Shown here piece by piece: positions 3,925-11,260 of a DNA stretch of 31,040 nt. The stretch covers positions 1 to 31,040 of the forward strand of contig CAIOIN010000030.1 in assembly GCA_903858385.1 (NCBI GenBank), given 5' to 3'. The stretch is from an uncultured Candidatus Micrarchaeota archaeon (GTDB lineage: Archaea > Micrarchaeota > Micrarchaeia > Micrarchaeales > Micrarchaeaceae). The position numbers were made by a program, and so were the translations under genes. Within the stretch, counting starts at the first letter, position 1, and every line of letters begins with the position of its first letter. Below the pieces are notes generated by a model. It searched no databases and was not told where the DNA came from. It saw only the letters and a program-made list of their open reading frames with translations.

Positions 3925-4554
3925 TTAGTTCGTTGTTGATCCCTTCTCGACTTCGCTTCTGTGCTCTTCTGCTATCTTTTGCACAATGCCCAGCTTTGAG
4001 TTCAGGTAACTAGCCTGCCATCGCGTGAACTTCTCCCGCTTCCTCGTCGCCGTTTCAGTCATCTTTTTCTGCCATTTTGACCTCATCGCCGACCACTCAT
4101 CGGCAGTGTAGCCGTAGGGAGGACTTTCCTTTATGGTCTTGGGATTGTGCGAATTGGCGTACAACTCGGTGTAGTAATCGTAATCGACGTCGCGCGCGCT
4201 GGATGGATCCACGTGCACCCCCTCTTTCGAGAGCATTTTTACCAGCTCTCCCTGGCTCGTCTTGTCGCTAGAATTGTCTGCATTGCTCGGGTTGTAGATT
4301 ATGGTTATCTGGGCATCGTCAAAATCCACGGCCGCTTTTATCACGGCGCCGAGAAGCATGAGCCGGTACTGCAGACGCGCTGAGTGTGGGAGATCCAACA
4401 GCTCCGCTTTCTTCAGATTTGAGAAGGTGACTTTCCTCACCATCCGGTACGGCATGCGGTACTGCTTCCCTTCCTCGATGACATAAGGGCCTACCCCCGA
4501 GCCCGTCTTGGCTCCGTTGCTGCCTGTTCCAATGGGTGCATCTCTTCTGTCCAT
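3925..4554 (-). CDS. Hypothetical protein with an HMA/ferredoxin-like fold segment lacking the CxxC metal motif
   Basis: RLMLLGAVIKAAVDFDDAQITIIYNPS...KTSQGELVKMLSKEGV follows the HMA alpha-beta-beta-alpha pattern. The protein has no Cys. Its ATG overlaps the TGA of the radical SAM gene (TGATG). Fold call is from pattern recognition only. Confidence 0.6.
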   Translation of the reverse strand: MDRRDAPIGTGSNGAKTGSGVGPYVIEEGKQYRMPYRMVRKVTFSNLKKAELLDLPHSARLQYRLMLLGAVIKAAVDFDDAQITIIYNPSNADNSSDKTSQGELVKMLSKEGVHVDPSSARDVDYDYYTELYANSHNPKTIKESPPYGYTADEWSAMRSKWQKKMTETATRKREKFTRWQASYLNSKLGIVQKIAEEHRSEVEKGSTTN

Positions 4555-6362
4555 CACTTGACACCGCTGCTTTTCTGCCCTTCGGGCTTCTCAATGCTGA
4601 AGTTTGCCACAGGCTTGCCGCCGTTTACCGGCAGGGCGAAGTAATCCTTCAGGTTGCCGTAGGTCTTCCAGTATGCCTTGGACGATTCAAGCTGCTTTGG
4701 ATTCCTGATATACTTGTCCTTTGAGTATGTCCAGCCCGGATGGGTCCTCTGCCATTCGCTGGCAGGCGTGCTGTACTGCTTCTGTATCTTGTCCCTGTAG
4801 ATCTCGGGGAAGATGTTGAATGTGCAGAACGGCAGCACCTCGCCGTCGGGCATCGCGTAATGGACGGCGCATTTCTCGACTCGGCGCACATCGTAGTTGT
4901 ACTCGTCCTGGAAGTGCATCATGCCGAGGAACAGGGTCTTCATGTGGAACTTGCCCATGACTGAAAAATCGTGCTTCAGGAATATGGATTTGAGCAGTTC
5001 GGTGAAGTTTATGCTCTTCGGCTGCTTTGCCGAGTCTATGAACTTTCCAAGTCCGAGCAGCGCCTTCATGGCTATGGCCTTTCTCGCGAGCCTGCCCTTG
5101 CCTTTCATCTCAATTGTGGTGTTGTTGATGTACTCGAAAAGCCCCTGCACGTCCACGAATTCTGTGAGCGGAATTATCCTGCCGTCTGAATCTATGAACA
5201 GGTAGCAGGCGGCGCCGCAGGCGAAATGCACCGAAAGATCGTATTTGTATTCTCCGGTCAGCGATTCTATGAACTTGTTTATGCTGCCGACGTATGGAAC
5301 CGAGAACCAGTCATCCTTCTTTATCACACCATTCGTCTGCTGCTCTATGAGCTTTATCGCGCTCGGTATGGTTATTCTTTGCTTCTCCCTCATTCCGGTC
5401 GGCATGCGCCCCACGAGCGATACTGGCTGGAAGTTCACTGCTCTCACCACATCGAGATTGTTGATCGCAAAATTTATCGTGGCGCCGAGCTCGTGCTCGT
5501 TCATGGTCCTTATCACCGTAGGTACGAGCACTATGCCCAATTTCGACTTTCTCGCTGCGTTGAGTATCATGGGTATTTCCCAGTGGTTCTTCGGGTTCGT
5601 CCTCTTCGACACTCCGTCGAAGCTCATGTAAAGCGTGCTTGTGCCTGCGTGCTTCAGCTCGTAGGCAAGATCGGGATTGAGGCCGATGTTTATGCCGGTC
5701 GTGTTGAGCTGGACCTGGTCGAAGCCCTCCTCTTTCGCCATCTTCACTATGTCGACTATCTGCGGGTGCATGGTCGGCTCGCCGCCGGTTATCTGTATCG
5801 CGTTCGTCGATATGGGCTTCTGGTTCTTCAGGCTCTTGAACATCTTCCTTATTTCATCGAGGTTCGGCTCGTATATCGGCTCGCCCTCTTTCGCAAAGAA
5901 GAAGCAGTACCAGCATGAGAGGTGGCATCTGTTGGTCACGACGACGTTCGCAAGGCCGGTGTGCGTCTGATGGCGCTCACACATGCCGCAATCGAACGGG
6001 CAATTGGCGCCCTTCGTCTTTGTCGTATAGTTGGGATTGTCGAAGCCGCGGCCTGCATAGTCGTACTTCTTCATCTTCATGTACATGTCGTAGTCTTCCC
6101 AGTACTTCTCGACGGTAAGCCCGTGCTCCGGGCAGCTCTTCCTTATCATCACGTTGTCTCCGTCCTTGTAGATTATGCCCTCTATGAGCAGCTTGCACTC
6201 CGGGCACACGGTTGTGGTCCTGTCTATCACCGGCATGCCTTCCATCTCCGCGACGGTCCTGTGGTATGGGGCGAGCACCGGATCTACAATGGGGGATGCA
6301 TGCTTCACGCTCGCCGAATCTTCCGCGCCTTCGACGGCATACACGCTATCCTGGCTGCTCAT
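4554..6362 (-). CDS. tes: Radical SAM enzyme of the MJ0619 family, likely tetraether lipid synthase (Tes/GDGT-MAS)
   Basis: N-terminal CPEC...CPEHG rubredoxin-like site, CPFDCGMCERH auxiliary cluster motif, CxxxCxxC (NRCHLSCWYC), QITGGEPT, VRAVNFQPVSLVGR, C-terminal MHFQDEYNYDVRRVEKCAVHYAMPDGEVLPFC. Confidence 0.85.
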   Translation of the reverse strand: MSSQDSVYAVEGAEDSASVKHASPIVDPVLAPYHRTVAEMEGMPVIDRTTTVCPECKLLIEGIIYKDGDNVMIRKSCPEHGLTVEKYWEDYDMYMKMKKYDYAGRGFDNPNYTTKTKGANCPFDCGMCERHQTHTGLANVVVTNRCHLSCWYCFFFAKEGEPIYEPNLDEIRKMFKSLKNQKPISTNAIQITGGEPTMHPQIVDIVKMAKEEGFDQVQLNTTGINIGLNPDLAYELKHAGTSTLYMSFDGVSKRTNPKNHWEIPMILNAARKSKLGIVLVPTVIRTMNEHELGATINFAINNLDVVRAVNFQPVSLVGRMPTGMREKQRITIPSAIKLIEQQTNGVIKKDDWFSVPYVGSINKFIESLTGEYKYDLSVHFACGAACYLFIDSDGRIIPLTEFVDVQGLFEYINNTTIEMKGKGRLARKAIAMKALLGLGKFIDSAKQPKSINFTELLKSIFLKHDFSVMGKFHMKTLFLGMMHFQDEYNYDVRRVEKCAVHYAMPDGEVLPFCTFNIFPEIYRDKIQKQYSTPASEWQRTHPGWTYSKDKYIRNPKQLESSKAYWKTYGNLKDYFALPVNGGKPVANFSIEKPEGQKSSGVK

Positions 6363-6368
6363 CGCTTA

Positions 6369-6403
6369 CACTCCTTGTTTTTGCGTTTTGAAGGTATTTT
6401 AAA
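6369..6403 (-). promoter_or_regulatory. Putative TATA box (TTTAAAA, 6403-6397) and Shine-Dalgarno (AGGAGTG, 6375-6369) of tes
   Basis: Both motifs read directly on the minus strand with archaeal-type spacing upstream of the ATG at 6362. Confidence 0.5.
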
Positions 6404-6470: not shown

Positions 6471-7199
6471 TCAGTTTTCTCTCCATCTGGCCACATAACG
6501 TGCGATGAAAAGGTACACGACCGTCTCTGCAAGAAGTATGACGAGCATTAACCATGACATTGGCTCTAAACCGAATAATCCTTGCTCCAGCACCGCTGCG
6601 GGAGTGGAAGGCAGGATCGCAAGAACGAAAAGCACGCTCTTCGGTATGTAGGTGTATGGGTAGAATGTAGGCGCTATTACCGTCAACAGCGTCGATAGCA
6701 TCATCGATATCGCCCACGATTTCCTCGTGTATTTTACAAAACTGAGTATGGAGAATACTAGGGATAGAGTTGCGACGGTGACAAGAATGCACACTGCCAT
6801 GGTCATCACCAGATTGTATGGGGTCAGTAGGTGGTAGGACATATCCAATGCCAAGTACAGCAGTATGCTGGGTATCGACCATTCGAAGCTGCCCAGCATT
6901 TCTCCGAACATGTAATCCAATGGCCCGGTCTTTGTGGCGATTATGAGATCCTGATGCCGGTCGTCCAATCTGAACTGCGTGAGCTCTCCGGCTGACTGTA
7001 TGCTGTTGGTGACCATCATTGACACCAGACCCCCTGCAAGAGCGTAGGGCAGCAGTTCGCCGTGGGAAAGCACCCCGACGACAAAAAGAAGCGATAGTGG
7101 AAGGCATAGGTTGGCGATGATGTAATAGTAGCTGGACTTGATTGCAGCAAGCCCGGTGAACCAACCATGCGCTAGTATATATCTAATATTCAAGTTCAA
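6471..7199 (-). CDS. ABC-2 type exporter permease
   Basis: About six hydrophobic segments. Overlaps the 3' end of the upstream ABC ATPase. Confidence 0.8.
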   Translation of the reverse strand: MNLNIRYILAHGWFTGLAAIKSSYYYIIANLCLPLSLLFVVGVLSHGELLPYALAGGLVSMMVTNSIQSAGELTQFRLDDRHQDLIIATKTGPLDYMFGEMLGSFEWSIPSILLYLALDMSYHLLTPYNLVMTMAVCILVTVATLSLVFSILSFVKYTRKSWAISMMLSTLLTVIAPTFYPYTYIPKSVLFVLAILPSTPAAVLEQGLFGLEPMSWLMLVILLAETVVYLFIARYVARWREN

Positions 7200-8022
7200 C
7201 GCCCCTTTTTATGAAAAGATCGTCCAGAGTTATGGGTTTTATTATGTCGCCGACCATTACTGACGCCTCTGCTTCGTTTTTCCCGATGTATGAGATGTAT
7301 GTATTGCCCACCTTGTACGAATGGCTTTTCTTCTTGGTGCTTTCGACTCTTACCTTCCCTTTGAAAGGCTTGAGCAGATCCCCCACCTTTCCCTGCGAGA
7401 GTATCTTGCCCTTGTCCATCATGAGCACATCGTCCGAAAGGGCCTGCGCCTCTTCCATGTAGTGCGTGGTCAATATGACCTGGCCTTTTATGGCTTTTAT
7501 GGCAGACCACACCTCTATCCTTGATAATGGATCAAGCCCGGTTGTTGGCTCGTCTAAGAACACCACATCGGATTTCGATGCGATGGCCATGGCCACGAAT
7601 ATCTTCCTTTTCATGCCGCCTGAAAGCTCGTCTGATATCTTTTCCCTCACTTTCCAGAGGCCGACCGTCTTGATCGCCTTTTCTGCGGCTTCTTTCGCTT
7701 CGGACATTCGCATGCGCCTTGCCGAAAGATACAGTACAACGTTGTCCAATGGACTGAGGTAATTTATCGGCTTCGATTCCTGGGGTATGCTAACAATGAT
7801 ATTCCTGACATCCTGCGCGGCTTTTACCACATCAAGCCCGTTTATCGAAGCGGTACCTGAGGTCGGAAGGAGCTGCGTTGACAGTATTCTCAAAAGCGTG
7901 GTCTTGCCCGCGCCGTTCCTCCCTATTATCGACGTCGTTTTCTTATTGAGTGTGAAGTTGACGCCGTCTAAAGCAAGAGTGCCGTCCTTGTAGCGTTTTG
8001 TTATCGCTCTCGCTTCTATCAT
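7183..8022 (-). CDS. ABC transporter ATP-binding protein (DrrA/CcmA-like exporter)
   Basis: Walker A GRNGAGKTT, signature LSGGMKRK, Walker B VFLDEPTTGLDP, H-loop LTTHYMEEA. Start placed at ATG 8022 (MIEARAITK); the ORF track extends to 8067. Confidence 0.93.
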   Translation of the reverse strand: MIEARAITKRYKDGTLALDGVNFTLNKKTTSIIGRNGAGKTTLLRILSTQLLPTSGTASINGLDVVKAAQDVRNIIVSIPQESKPINYLSPLDNVVLYLSARRMRMSEAKEAAEKAIKTVGLWKVREKISDELSGGMKRKIFVAMAIASKSDVVFLDEPTTGLDPLSRIEVWSAIKAIKGQVILTTHYMEEAQALSDDVLMMDKGKILSQGKVGDLLKPFKGKVRVESTKKKSHSYKVGNTYISYIGKNEAEASVMVGDIIKPITLDDLFIKRGVELEY

Positions 8023-8070
8023 CGCATCCACTGCGTTTTCGAAGTACGATTTATTATGGGTTTTCACGGG

Positions 8071-8958
8071 TCAGACGCTTATGCCGAAGACGTGGCGTAT
8101 CAGCATGCCGATGATGAAGAGTATTATGGCTGTCGCGAACATTATGCCGGCCAGTTCGGTGAAATCTTTTTTGAAGTTGCTGCCGGTCATTATGGAGTTG
8201 TACCAGCTCACCGATGCTATTATCAGCACGCAAAGCGCTATCGACGATGCCATGGCTGTGAACATCGTGCTGGTCAGGAAGTAGGGCGCGGCGAGCACCA
8301 GAGTGCTCAAGAAGTACGATGCTCCGGTGTATCCGGCTGCGGTAAATGGCGAGCCCTTGAATCCCTGTTTCGCCTGCAGGTATGCTGCAGAGGCCATCGA
8401 GATCGATGCTGCTGCTCCGGCGATTATTCCGGCAAGGCCCGTGAGGATTGTTGAGTGGTACACCCCCAACGATCCCGTGTATATGGCGGTCACCTCAACC
8501 AACGCATCGGCGAGCCCGAGCACTATGAACGAGACGTATTTTATGTACGAATCTTGGATCTGGTCCGCGAACGCCTTTTCGTGTGACTCTTCGTCCTTGA
8601 TTATCATTTCGAGGAGCTTCTTGTCCTTGCTCGGTATCAAAGCCCTCAACGAGCTGTAGTTTTTGACTGCGTCCCCTTCGGTACTTTCGAGATATTTCAC
8701 TACGAACGCCGCTCCGAGCAGATGCCGAAGGAAAAGCAGTGTGTAGACTTTGGCGTAGTCGGGGCGTACGGACTCGTATTTGCAGTATCTGCCCCAGAAC
8801 AGGTAATGCTTATGTTCGGTTGCCGCTAGCTTCGAGAATATTTCGCAGAGCTTCTTGTCTTTTCCCATGTGCGAGAGCTTCGAATATATCGTGTAATCGG
8901 TTAGCTCTCCCTTGCGCCCTTCGATTGCTGCCTCTTCAAGAGATTTTTTGGGTGACAA
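8071..8958 (-). CDS. Erythrin (ferritin-like)-VIT1/CCC1 fusion, MbfA-like iron exporter
   Basis: Two ExxH diiron motifs (ATEHKHY, DEESHEK) followed by the VIT1 motif IVLGLADALVEV..G..AGAAASISMA and TM helices. TTG start at 8958 inferred from AGTG-N5; ATG 8982 is the alternative. Confidence 0.85.
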   Translation of the reverse strand: MSPKKSLEEAAIEGRKGELTDYTIYSKLSHMGKDKKLCEIFSKLAATEHKHYLFWGRYCKYESVRPDYAKVYTLLFLRHLLGAAFVVKYLESTEGDAVKNYSSLRALIPSKDKKLLEMIIKDEESHEKAFADQIQDSYIKYVSFIVLGLADALVEVTAIYTGSLGVYHSTILTGLAGIIAGAAASISMASAAYLQAKQGFKGSPFTAAGYTGASYFLSTLVLAAPYFLTSTMFTAMASSIALCVLIIASVSWYNSIMTGSNFKKDFTELAGIMFATAIILFIIGMLIRHVFGISV

Positions 8959-9013
8959 TTGCTCACTGCGTTCGATTAACATGCACAGGCAGTTATTAAA
9001 TCATTGCAGCGGA

Positions 9014-10025: not shown

Positions 10026-10259
10026 ATGAGAGGAAGAGACGCACTAACCACGTGCGAGTCTTGCGGCAGGAAGGTTCCGAGGAACAAGGCCGTAATAGAC
10101 GAGAGGGCGACCACCTTCAGCACGGACACCCACACACCACAGGATGTGAGGTTCTTTGAGAGGAGGAAGGTCTACTACTGCATAAGCTGCGCAAAGCACA
10201 AGGGCATTTTCGAGAAGCTTAAGAGGAAGGCTATTGAGAGAGCCAACAAGATGGTCTGA
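10026..10259 (+). CDS. rps26e: 30S ribosomal protein S26e
   Basis: CESCGRKVPRNKA...YYCISCAKHKGI zinc-binding pattern typical of eS26. Confidence 0.88.
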   Translation: MRGRDALTTCESCGRKVPRNKAVIDERATTFSTDTHTPQDVRFFERRKVYYCISCAKHKGIFEKLKRKAIERANKMV

Positions 10260-11260
10260 TGGTGGAAGCGGAGGATCTGCTGATCTTCAAGCTCAGAGAG
10301 AAAGGCAAAAATCCGTCCGCAGTCGAAAAACCACAGACCGGTGAAGCAGCGATGGCCGAGCCGAAGGCAGAGGCCGCGCCGCAGCAAAAGCCGCAAGTTT
10401 TTGATACTGCAGCAGCAAGGAAGCCTGCGTTAGAACAGGAGCCTGTGAAAGCCAAGGATTCGGAATTCTCGTTCACCAATTTCTTTGGGGTCAAAAAGAA
10501 GGAAGCAGTCAAGCCGCAGGAAGCACAGGTGCAGCAGACGATTGAGGAACCCGCAAATTACACGGCACAGACGGAGGCAGCTCCGGAAAGATACGAAAAG
10601 ACAACGGGCAGAGAGCTCGAAGAGGCGAAGGGTAAGTTCTGCGCGTGGCATCCGTGGAGGCCGGCGTATGCGATCTGCGACTTCTGCCATAAGCCCTACT
10701 GCTATGAGGATACCGTCGAATTCAGCAGGGGCTACTACTGCCTAGAGGATATTGACAAGATTTCGGAGAACTACGCCCAGGAACTCTATGCCAGCTACAG
10801 CGGCATAGGCTTCATAGCTGCGGGGCTGTTCATGTTCGCGTTCATAGCGTTCGTGTTTTTCGCGAGCGGCCAGCTTGCATACATATTCAACTCGATAATG
10901 TCGATAGGATGGCCGGCATTCGTGGCGAACATTAATTACAGCTACGGCAGTGCCCTGCTCGGCCTGGTGATAACGGTGACGGGCGTGCTCTCCGCAGTGC
11001 TTATAGTCATACAGTCCAACAAGGGTTTCACGGTGGGCCTGGTAGCGGGCCTGGCCGAGACCGTGCTTTTCAGCTACCAGTTCCTGAGCAGCGGATTGCT
11101 GTACATGGCGATGATCAGCGCCATGGGATTGGTCGCGCTCATGCTGTTGGCGTATTCGAAGGTCTCATACGAAGTGCCAGAGCAATTGATCTCCGAAAAG
11201 TCGATATATCACAGTGCAGTCGTGACTGGAGGGGGCACGTCAAACTCGCTCAGCTTCTGA
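10259..11260 (+). CDS. Membrane protein: disordered E/Q/P/K-rich N-terminus, B-box-like zinc finger, about four TM helices
   Basis: CAWHPWRPAYAICDFCHKPYCYED...YYCLED followed by hydrophobic segments. TGATG coupling to rps26e. Confidence 0.65.
   Translation: MVEAEDLLIFKLREKGKNPSAVEKPQTGEAAMAEPKAEAAPQQKPQVFDTAAARKPALEQEPVKAKDSEFSFTNFFGVKKKEAVKPQEAQVQQTIEEPANYTAQTEAAPERYEKTTGRELEEAKGKFCAWHPWRPAYAICDFCHKPYCYEDTVEFSRGYYCLEDIDKISENYAQELYASYSGIGFIAAGLFMFAFIAFVFFASGQLAYIFNSIMSIGWPAFVANINYSYGSALLGLVITVTGVLSAVLIVIQSNKGFTVGLVAGLAETVLFSYQFLSSGLLYMAMISAMGLVALMLLAYSKVSYEVPEQLISEKSIYHSAVVTGGGTSNSLSF

What the first reader, a model, noticed from the sequence alone, without database searches (positions are those of the whole stretch)
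3925..6362. Tes translationally coupled to a Cys-less HMA-fold protein: candidate two-gene lipid-remodelling module
Seen: the tes TGA overlaps the next ATG (TGATG at 4556-4552), and the pair has its own TATA and SD. The partner shows an HMA-like beta-alpha-beta-beta-alpha-beta pattern without CxxC, then a Tyr/Pro-rich segment (YDYYTELYANSHNPKTIKESPPYGY) and an amphipathic Trp/Lys helix. Inference: it may be an uncharacterised Tes accessory factor (membrane recruitment, lipid hand-off or Fe-S support). I know of no described dedicated Tes partner.
Basis: partly seen in the sequence, partly recalled or inferred. Interest (0 to 1): 0.6.

Follow-up and report, generated by a model that had tools for sequence, protein, structure and literature searches.

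The report
Tetraether synthase with dedicated HMA-fold partner
In this tiny symbiotic archaeon (Micrarchaeota), the enzyme that welds two membrane lipids into one membrane-spanning lipid is followed by an undescribed cysteine-free protein shaped like a copper chaperone; the pair stays together in every related genome that has the enzyme, so the protein is most likely a helper subunit of unknown role.

Summary
ORF 4554-6362(-) is a bona fide tetraether synthase (Tes/GDGT-MAS). Its TGA overlaps the ATG of a 209-aa, Cys-free ORF (3925-4554, -).

What the partner is:
- Its core models confidently as an HMA fold.
- It is a remote sequence relative of CopA HMA domains.
- The CxxC metal site is replaced by a conserved D54-x-x-H57.

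Evidence that the two genes belong together:
- **Co-occurrence.** In one Micrarchaeota order, Tes and partner are present or absent in exactly the same genomes.
- **Gene order.** In 79 of 79 loci the partner lies directly downstream on the same strand, while all other neighbours vary.
- **Tes extension.** Partner-bearing Tes proteins all carry a roughly 55-aa C-terminal extension. GDGT-MAS and most partner-less Micrarchaeota Tes lack it.
- **Matching tails in relatives.** A Cys-rich Tes tail and a KGFWFHG partner tail come and go together (57 both, 18 neither, 4 partner tail only, 0 Tes tail only).
- **Modelling.** An AlphaFold2 model of a relative's natural read-through fusion gives pTM 0.88, which implies a compact complex.

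The best reading is a lineage-specific, non-catalytic Tes subunit. Its exact role (lid or adaptor, metal handling, membrane docking) is unresolved. I found no description of it in the literature searched. This scan had already noted the same pair in another Micrarchaeota genome.

The parts
6395..6403 (-). TATA-like box TTTAAAATA, about 37 nt upstream of the tes ATG
   Evidence: Read directly. It is a consensus resemblance only; no transcript data are available.
6371..6374 (-). GGAG Shine-Dalgarno-like motif, 8 nt before the tes ATG
   Evidence: Read directly.
4554..6362 (-). tes: tetraether lipid synthase (radical SAM, GDGT-MAS family), 602 aa plus TGA stop
   Evidence: NF045702 scores 672.6 bits against a cut-off of 450. 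Pfam finds Radical_SAM and Zn_ribbon_HMPTM. The match to 7tol_A has E 5.9e-126 over residues 42-542.
6123..6206 (-). Rubredoxin-type iron motif CX2CX20CX2H (Tes residues 53-80)
   Evidence: Regex. The motif is as defined for GDGT-MAS in PMC9433317.
5904..5927 (-). Radical SAM cluster motif CX3CX2C (Tes residues 146-153)
   Evidence: It is aligned to the same motif of 7tol_A.
4557..4736 (-). Clade-specific C-terminal extension of Tes (residues 543-602), beyond the end of GDGT-MAS
   Evidence: The alignment to 7tol_A stops at residue 542. The extension is aligned in every partner-bearing Tes, and also in L031 and L035. It is missing in 8 partner-less Micrarchaeota Tes. In the fusion model it has pLDDT 89-96.
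4552..4556 (-). TGATG: the tes stop overlaps the partner start by one base
   Evidence: The same -1 overlap occurs only in the same-genus genome G107.
4562..4565 (-). GGTG Shine-Dalgarno-like motif inside the end of tes, 7 nt before the partner ATG
   Evidence: Read directly.
3925..4554 (-). Partner gene: 209-aa Cys-free HMA-fold protein of an unnamed family (plus TAA stop)
   Evidence: There is no Pfam or NCBIfam family. 163 homologues were found, all hypothetical. A profile search of 1.84 billion representatives gave only 38 hits. The conserved N-terminus MD(R/H)... supports the ATG at 4554.
4177..4443 (-). HMA-like beta-alpha-beta-beta-alpha-beta core (partner residues 38-126)
   Evidence: AlphaFold2 secondary structure with pLDDT 93-98. 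VIA gives Z 10.9 to 6a71_A, and the top 24 hits are all HMA domains. The A1 profile hits B. subtilis CopA HMA domains with E 1.1e-6.
4384..4395 (-). D54-L-P-H57: DxxH at the position of the HMA CxxC metal site
   Evidence: The HMMER alignment places the MTCAAC of CopA opposite these residues. D54 and H57 are conserved in at least 90% of long forms, but not in short forms.
4108..4182 (-). Tyr-rich helix alpha3 and the PPYGYT segment (partner residues 125-149), the most conserved part outside the core
   Evidence: Y127, E143, P146 and Y147 are invariant. In the fusion model, many radical SAM templates align as far as the end of the equivalent helix (model residue about 747).
3943..4104 (-). Long basic Trp/Lys-rich helices (partner residues 151-204)
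   Evidence: Helices 151-186 and 188-204. The first helix (151-186) has net charge +5, and its amphipathicity is not above shuffles.

Best explanation
The two genes form one transcription unit. It encodes the tetraether synthase of a Micrarchaeales archaeon and a lineage-specific, non-catalytic subunit.

**Shown.** Tes has every cofactor motif of GDGT-MAS, so it is the catalyst that joins the tails of two saturated diether lipids. The partner is a degenerate HMA domain: it has no Cys, and DxxH replaces CxxC. It also carries an N-terminal hairpin, a Tyr-rich helix, a PPYGYT segment and a long basic helix.

**Inferred.**
- The partner binds Tes stoichiometrically. It packs against the radical SAM barrel and against the roughly 55-residue C-terminal extension that only partner-bearing Tes proteins possess.
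- It acts there as a lid or adaptor supplied in trans. It may stabilise the enzyme or gate its lipid pockets.
- Its basic helix faces the anionic membrane surface.
- In most relatives a second contact exists between a Cys-rich Tes tail and a KGFWFHG partner tail. The window's lineage has lost both tails and keeps only the core interaction.
For: 1. **Enzyme identity.** NF045702 672.6 bits; 7tol_A E 5.9e-126; the cofactor motifs CX2CX20CX2H, CX3CX2C..H and CX3CX2C plus the MHF methionine.
2. **Co-occurrence.** Presence and absence are identical across two families of the order. The f3 genome G366 also has both.
3. **Gene order.** 30/30 and 79/79 loci have Tes followed by the partner on the same strand, with a median spacer of 26.5 nt. 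Among 21 long loci only this pair is invariant.
4. **More distant case.** G020, from another family, keeps a divergent short partner directly after its Tes.
5. **Tes extension.** It tracks partner presence.
6. **Tails.** Co-variation is 57/18/4/0. Each tail changes state at least 6 times on the Tes-core tree, and the 3 well-supported independent contrasts were concordant in almost all pairings, never opposite.
7. **Modelling.** A read-through fusion of a relative (Tes 74% identical to the window's) gives pLDDT 86.6 and pTM 0.88, despite a linker of about 25 residues with pLDDT under 50. By my estimate an undocked partner would cap pTM near 0.7.
8. **Packing hint.** More than 20 radical SAM templates align to that model as far as residue about 747, inside the partner's Tyr-rich helix. 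This means the helix lies against the barrel in the model.
9. **Native pathway.** The genome encodes GGGPS, CarS, a UbiA-family transferase and GGR, so Tes sits in a native ether-lipid pathway.
Against: - There is no direct interaction data.
- No PAE or coordinates were available, so the interface is inferred only from pTM and alignment ranges.
- The fusion model is of a relative, not the window pair. It used only 8 paired rows, and a covalent link can bias packing.
- Co-absence of two adjacent genes in incomplete MAGs is not independent evidence.
- The tail co-variation rests on few independent events (sign test p 0.25).
- GDGT-MAS was purified as a monomer, with no partner protein reported (PMC9433317). 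Most Tes-bearing archaea, including 8 of 10 other Micrarchaeota Tes loci examined, have no partner. The partner therefore cannot be generally required for catalysis.
- No natural fusion was found (weak evidence).
Confidence: 0.55

Rival explanations
1. Metal-handling chaperone. The partner keeps the metallochaperone job of its HMA ancestors but uses harder ligands (Asp54/His57). It delivers or buffers iron, or another metal, for the rubredoxin site or the three [4Fe-4S] clusters of Tes. In most relatives it does this by exchange with the Cys-rich CGCG tail of Tes.
For: - Real HMA homology, with DxxH exactly opposite CxxC.
- D54 and H57 are conserved in at least 90% of long forms.
- The Cys-rich Tes tail co-varies with the His-containing KGFWFHG tail of the partner.
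- Tes needs 13 iron atoms (PMC9433317).
Against: - The partner has no Cys at all.
- D and H are not kept in the short forms that still sit beside Tes.
- The window pair has lost both tails, yet the core is retained.
- The invariant residues (P35, Q62, Y63, Y127, E143, P146, Y147, W154) are not typical metal ligands.
Confidence: 0.2
2. Membrane tether or lipid presenter. The partner recruits soluble Tes to the membrane, or hands diether lipids (possibly host-derived) into the Tes pockets. It would do this through its basic C-terminal helices and, in relatives, through the aromatic GFWFHG end.
For: - The first long helix (151-186) has net charge +5.
- An aromatic-basic KGFWFHG tail is present in 61 of 79 relatives.
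- Tes substrates are membrane lipids, and the lipid head groups face outwards in GDGT-MAS.
- The cultured Micrarchaeon depends on lipids or lipid precursors from its host (PMC8975820).
Against: - The helix is polar and not amphipathic beyond chance.
- The window protein lacks the aromatic tail.
- Short forms lack the helices altogether.
- No lipid-binding fold was detected.
Confidence: 0.15
3. Unrelated passenger. The gene is merely co-transcribed with tes in a compact genome and has an independent function.
For: - No family annotation.
- Function cannot be read from a ferredoxin-like fold.
- Compact DPANN genomes have many tight gene pairs.
Against: - All other neighbours of tes are shuffled, while this pair is invariant across two families and reappears in G020.
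- The Tes extension and the tails co-vary with it.
- The fusion model has pTM 0.88.
- The family was found nowhere away from Tes among the loci examined.
Confidence: 0.07
4. Protein substrate. The radical SAM enzyme modifies the partner (for example its Tyr-rich segment), as in RiPP systems.
For: - Radical SAM genes next to small ORFs are often maturase-substrate pairs.
- The Tyr/Pro-rich segment is conserved.
Against: - The enzyme scores as an equivalog of the lipid synthase and keeps its lipid-pocket scaffold.
- The partner is a well-folded domain, not a leader-core peptide.
Confidence: 0.03

Closest known systems
GDGT-MAS / Tes (M. jannaschii MJ0619, PDB 7TOL/7TOM; NCBIfam NF045702; S. acidocaldarius Saci_0703, M. 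acetivorans MA_1486)
   Same: Same family and domain order, and the same four metal sites. E 5.9e-126 over residues 42-542. The modelled relative superposes on 7tol with Z 45.2 and rmsd 1.9 A over 483 residues.
   Different: The window enzyme has about 40 extra N-terminal and about 60 extra C-terminal residues. It is always encoded with the partner. GDGT-MAS was purified as a monomer, and no partner is described for it.
HMA metallochaperone domains (Pfam PF00403: CopZ, Atx1, MerP, N-terminal domains of CopA/ATP7B)
   Same: Same beta-alpha-beta-beta-alpha-beta fold (Z 10.9, rmsd 1.4 A). There is remote sequence homology, including the V.F....T..YNP stretch (E 1.1e-6).
   Different: It has no Cys, and DxxH replaces CxxC. 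It also has an extra N-terminal hairpin, a Tyr-rich helix, a PPYGYT segment and long basic helices. The single sequence does not reach Pfam HMA. It is linked to a lipid enzyme, not to a metal pump.
Cys-less HMA-like or ferredoxin-like modules used as protein-protein adaptors (YAM domain of E. coli YajR, PDB 3wdo/4q2m; plant integrated HMA domains)
   Same: An HMA-type fold that has been co-opted for binding (rows at Z 7.5-8.6; that these domains are Cys-less and do not bind metal is my own knowledge, not tested here).
   Different: No detectable sequence relation. Those are domains of larger proteins, whereas this is a separate gene product tied to a radical SAM enzyme.
Small dedicated partners of radical SAM enzymes, such as PqqD with PqqE (comparison from general knowledge, not tested here)
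   Same: A small non-catalytic protein, encoded next to a multi-cluster radical SAM enzyme, that docks on it.
   Different: PqqD is an RRE-fold peptide chaperone that presents a peptide substrate. Here the fold is HMA and the substrate is a lipid.

Membership tests
Tes / GDGT-MAS (NF045702) | Whole-protein score above the curated equivalog cut-off | tested here: met
   672.6 bits against a cut-off of 450, covering model positions 2-485 of 486.
Tes / GDGT-MAS (NF045702) | Rubredoxin-type iron site CX2CX20CX2H | tested here: met
   Residues 53-80. The motif is as defined in PMC9433317.
Tes / GDGT-MAS (NF045702) | N-terminal auxiliary [4Fe-4S] cluster: three Cys plus His | tested here: met
   CPFDCGMCERH at residues 121-131, aligned to the same motif of 7tol_A.
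Tes / GDGT-MAS (NF045702) | Radical SAM CX3CX2C cluster | tested here: met
   Residues 146-153. Pfam Radical_SAM has E 2.5e-23.
Tes / GDGT-MAS (NF045702) | C-terminal auxiliary cluster region with the labile Met (Met439 of MJ0619) | tested here: met
   MMHF at residues 481-484 aligns with CMHF of 7tol_A. The mapping to Met439 is my own count of the tag offset.
Tes / GDGT-MAS (NF045702) | Forms biphytanyl C-C bonds (GDGT or macrocyclic archaeol) from saturated diethers | not testable with these tools
   This needs an enzyme assay or heterologous expression.
HMA domain (PF00403) | Beta-alpha-beta-beta-alpha-beta ferredoxin-like fold of about 70 residues | tested here: met
   AlphaFold2 model. 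The top 24 VIA matches are HMA domains with Z 8.3-10.9.
HMA domain (PF00403) | Sequence match to the family | tested here: inconclusive
   The single sequence gave no PF00403 hit at E up to 1. The family profile A1 does hit CopA HMA domains in the PDB at E 1.1e-6.
HMA domain (PF00403) | Metal-binding GMxCxxC motif | tested here: not met
   There are no Cys in the protein. D54 and H57 stand opposite the two Cys.
HMA domain (PF00403) | Binds a heavy metal ion | not testable with these tools
   This needs metal analysis of purified protein.

The most novel reading that the evidence does not exclude
The partner would be the first accessory subunit known for a tetraether synthase. It would be an HMA domain converted to a DxxH variant that docks beside the radical SAM barrel. 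In Micrarchaeales it would be needed for Tes to work, either as a trans-acting lid that controls lipid entry or as an iron donor cooperating with the Cys-rich Tes tail. This would let these host-dependent DPANN cells make their own GDGTs from acquired precursors.
Probability: 0.25. Interest if true: 0.75.

Novelty: new variant of a known kind. Interest (0 to 1): 0.58.

Why it matters
**Enzymology.** Tes was identified only in 2022, and it is described as acting alone. A conserved, co-evolving partner would be the first hint that some archaea run the reaction with a two-protein enzyme. It also offers a handle on how substrate access, membrane docking or cofactor supply is organised.

**DPANN biology.** The Tes discovery paper suspected that DPANN Tes homologues might be host contamination (PMC8941075). 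Here tes is clearly native:
- It is found across one whole order of Micrarchaeota.
- It has a lineage-specific partner.
- It sits in a genome that also has GGGPS, CarS, a UbiA-family transferase and GGR.

This bears on how host-dependent archaea build GDGT membranes, and on attributing environmental GDGTs to their producers.

**Protein families.** The partner defines an unnamed HMA-derived family with DxxH in place of CxxC.

Tried and rejected
**Searches that found nothing useful**
- Pfam and NCBIfam on the partner gave nothing meaningful: DUF6809 at E 0.12 and DUF908 at E 0.21.
- Foldseek against the PDB gave no hit at E <= 0.001, although its top hits were HMA domains. VIA-wide gave the clear result instead.
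- No Tes-partner fusion proteins were found among longer proteins. This is weak evidence.
- The protein atlas returned only the family's own unnamed clusters.
- Rfam found nothing in the window.
- The sigma-70 promoter and terminator scan was no better than shuffles, and it does not apply to archaea anyway.

**Genomic context of the short metagenomic forms (P0141-P0152)**
- The single metagenome scan returned only a truncated contig.
- Whether these short forms lie beside tes is therefore unknown.

**Weak or negative homology tests**
- Weak A3 profile hits (E 1e-4 to 1e-9) in Tes-less families of the phylum were set aside as probably ordinary HMA domains. I did not inspect them individually.
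- Only G020, out of 26 genomes in its family, has the short partner.
- The small ORF overlapping the tes stop in L035 aligns in the expected register, but only at hhalign probability 8%. This is inconclusive.

**Ideas rejected**
- The upstream ABC-2 transporter and VIT1 genes are not part of the module, because they are not conserved next to tes.
- The amphipathic-helix idea failed the shuffle test.
Full report
**Observation**

On the minus strand, a 602-aa ORF (4554-6362) ends in TGA at 4556-4554. An ATG at 4554-4552 opens a 209-aa ORF that runs to 3925, so the TGATG overlap is real. The ORF listing starts the second ORF at the GTG one codon earlier. The N-terminus MD(R/H)xD is conserved across homologues, which supports the ATG.

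Upstream of the first gene lie a TTTAAAATA box (6403-6395) and a GGAG (6374-6371). A GGTG lies 7 nt before the second ATG. These are sequence facts, not evidence of use.

**The enzyme**

- The first protein scores 672.6 bits on NCBIfam NF045702 (tetraether lipid synthase Tes, cut-off 450). It carries Pfam Radical_SAM and the HMPTM zinc ribbon.
- It matches the solved GDGT-MAS of M. jannaschii (7tol_A) at E 5.9e-126 over residues 42-542.
- It keeps every cofactor motif described for that enzyme in PMC9433317. These are CX2CX20CX2H (53-80), CX3CX2C with His (121-131), the radical SAM CX3CX2C (146-153) and the MHF methionine region (481-484).
- Relative to GDGT-MAS it has about 60 additional C-terminal residues (543-602).

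**The partner protein**

- It has no Pfam or NCBIfam family.
- An AlphaFold2 model built on 44 homologues is confident: mean pLDDT 83.8, with the core at 93-98.
- The model shows a disordered N-terminus (1-22) and a beta-hairpin (24-33). A beta-alpha-beta-beta-alpha-beta core (38-126) follows, then a Tyr-rich helix (127-136) and two long basic helices (151-186, 188-204).
- An all-against-representatives structural search puts HMA domains in the first 24 places. The best is ATP7B MBD 6a71_A, with Z 10.9 and rmsd 1.4 A over 72 residues.
- The relation is also visible in sequence. The family profile hits the HMA domains of B. subtilis CopA at E 1.1e-6. In that alignment the two Cys of MTCAAC stand opposite D54 and H57.
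- The protein has no Cys at all.
- The long helix is basic and polar, and it is not amphipathic beyond chance.

**Distribution and linkage**

- *Homologues.* The 163 homologues in the large protein collection are all unnamed, and those with a label come from Micrarchaeota MAGs. A filter-free profile search of 1.84 billion representatives found only 38 proteins. In GTDB species genomes, 179 loci encode a relative. The 80 loci listed are nearly all titled Micrarchaeota, Micrarchaeaceae, Micrarchaeales or Micrarchaeia; two are labelled Marsarchaeota and one a bacterial MAG.
- *Co-occurrence.* In a sample of 401 genomes of the phylum, the partner occurs in 84/93 genomes of family f1 and 74/83 of family f2, and in no other family. 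Tes occurs in exactly the same genomes of these two families, and the same 18 genomes lack both. These tallies include the unpublished genomes G029 (f1) and G198 (f2). Without them the counts are 83/92 and 73/82. Locus L017 in the 30/30 adjacency count is from G029.
- *Caveat on co-absence.* The genes are adjacent, so joint absence from incomplete MAGs is not independent evidence.
- *Gene order.* This is the informative fact. Tes lies directly upstream of the partner on the same strand in 30 of 30 loci and in 79 of 79. The median spacer is 26.5 nt, and 58 of 68 estimates fall between 0 and 60 nt. In 21 longer loci no other neighbour is conserved.
- *Overlap.* The -1 overlap is confined to the window and its congener G107.
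- *Window neighbours.* The ABC-2 transporter, the VIT1-family gene and PheRS beta are not part of the unit.

**Beyond the order**

Sixteen genomes of other families in the phylum have a more distant Tes. I examined ten of their loci.
- G020 carries a divergent short partner directly after Tes (E 7.6e-9 with the long-form profile, 1.9e-29 with the short-form profile). It is the only such genome among 26 of its family.
- G383 has a 95-aa ORF overlapping the Tes stop that aligns in the right register, but only weakly.
- The other eight have no partner.

Short forms of 95-155 aa from metagenomes share the family motifs: PF..V, AA.LQYRLLL, IIY.P and DY.EL. Short forms of about 115-140 aa also occur next to Tes inside the order.

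**Co-variation between the two proteins**

1. *Tes extension.* Every partner-bearing Tes aligns with the window's C-terminal extension at least to about residue 576. So does G383. The eight partner-less Tes stop at 530-560.
2. *Tails.* In most relatives Tes continues into a low-complexity linker and a Cys-rich CGCG tail, and the partner ends in KGFWFHG. Across 79 loci, 57 have both tails, 18 have neither, 4 have only the partner tail and none has only the Tes tail. On a tree of the Tes core, each trait changes at least 6 times, and at least 3 times on well-supported branches. The three well-supported independent contrasts went the same way in almost all pairings and never the opposite way. Three contrasts cannot reach significance, though (p 0.25). 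The window pair has neither tail.

**Predicted complex**

No multimer tool was available. In eight relatives the two genes are in the same frame, separated only by the tes stop. I read one of these through (L103:1105-3591, TGA as Gly; its Tes is 74% identical to the window's). I modelled it on an alignment of 8 such paired rows plus unpaired Tes and partner rows.
- The 829-residue model has mean pLDDT 86.6 and pTM 0.88. A linker (599-623) falls below pLDDT 50. The Tes extension scores 89-96 and the partner core 91-97.
- With a quarter of the chain in the partner, I estimate that an unplaced partner would hold pTM near 0.7. The value therefore implies a confidently packed assembly.
- The Tes part superposes on 7tol with Z 45.2.
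- More than 20 other radical SAM structures (MoaA, viperins, SuiB, SkfB, PqqE, anSME) align to the model up to residue about 747. That residue is the end of the partner's Tyr-rich helix. This suggests the helix sits against the barrel, where those enzymes have a C-terminal element of their own.

I had no PAE or coordinates. This is a hint about the interface, not a map of it.

**Biological setting**

The genome (762 kb, 85% complete) also encodes GGGP synthase (PcrB), CDP-archaeol synthase, a UbiA-family prenyltransferase and geranylgeranyl reductase homologues. Tes is therefore part of a native ether-lipid assembly route. It is not host contamination, which PMC8941075 considered possible for DPANN MAGs. 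A cultured Micrarchaeon has GDGT-0 membranes and an incomplete precursor pathway (PMC8975820).

**Interpretation**

The best-supported reading is a lineage-specific, non-catalytic subunit of Tes. It would bind the enzyme through its HMA-like core and Tyr-rich helix, together with the Tes extension (confidence about 0.55). Three more specific or competing readings remain open:
- Iron or metal handling through DxxH and the Cys-rich tail (0.2).
- Membrane docking or lipid presentation (0.15).
- An unrelated passenger gene (0.07).

GDGT-MAS was purified as a monomer with no partner reported. Most Tes-bearing lineages also lack the partner, so it is an add-on rather than a general requirement.

**Novelty**

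I found no paper describing a Tes partner. My results agree with it. They add the DxxH alignment, the Tes-extension correlation, the tail co-variation and the fusion model.

Noticed in passing
L095-L172 (relatives), e.g. L095:828-2882:+ and the ORF downstream of it: Most Micrarchaeales Tes proteins end in a Cys-rich CGCG-repeat tail, and their partners end in KGFWFHG. The two tails co-occur (57 both, 18 neither, 4 partner tail only, 0 Tes tail only). The window pair has lost both.
   Followed up: yes
L031:867-1355:- (G020, another family of the phylum): A divergent short partner of about 160 aa lies directly after a Tes that is 52% identical to the window's. It is the only such case among 26 genomes of that family, which suggests either transfer or a relic.
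   Followed up: partly
L035:3084-3368:+ (G383): A 95-aa ORF overlaps the stop of a Tes that carries the extension motif. It aligns to the partner core in the expected register (QY.IL, VIR, IIF, LLKDEG), but only at hhalign probability 8%.
   Followed up: partly
L032 (G046), upstream of its Tes: In this partner-less family, the ORF beside tes looks like CDP-archaeol synthase (CarS) by eye. It was not scanned against families.
   Followed up: no
L111 (DATLRT010000026.1): An 8.4-kb contig of a MAG titled 'Candidatus Acidiferrales bacterium' carries a typical Micrarchaeota Tes-partner pair. On the tree it clusters with Micrarchaeota loci, so the contig is probably mis-binned.
   Followed up: partly
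window 8071-8982 (-), 7183-8067 (-), 6471-7199 (-): A 303-aa protein with a VIT1-family match (iron or manganese transporter type), then an ABC ATPase and an ABC-2 permease, lie just upstream of tes on the same strand. They are not conserved beside tes in relatives.
   Followed up: partly
P0138 (273 aa, metagenome): This protein matches only the EGV...PPYGY...EW part of the partner, inside otherwise unrelated low-complexity sequence. It is probably a frameshifted or chimeric gene call.
   Followed up: no
window 10259-11260 (+): A 333-aa ORF has no Pfam family at E <= 0.001.
   Followed up: no
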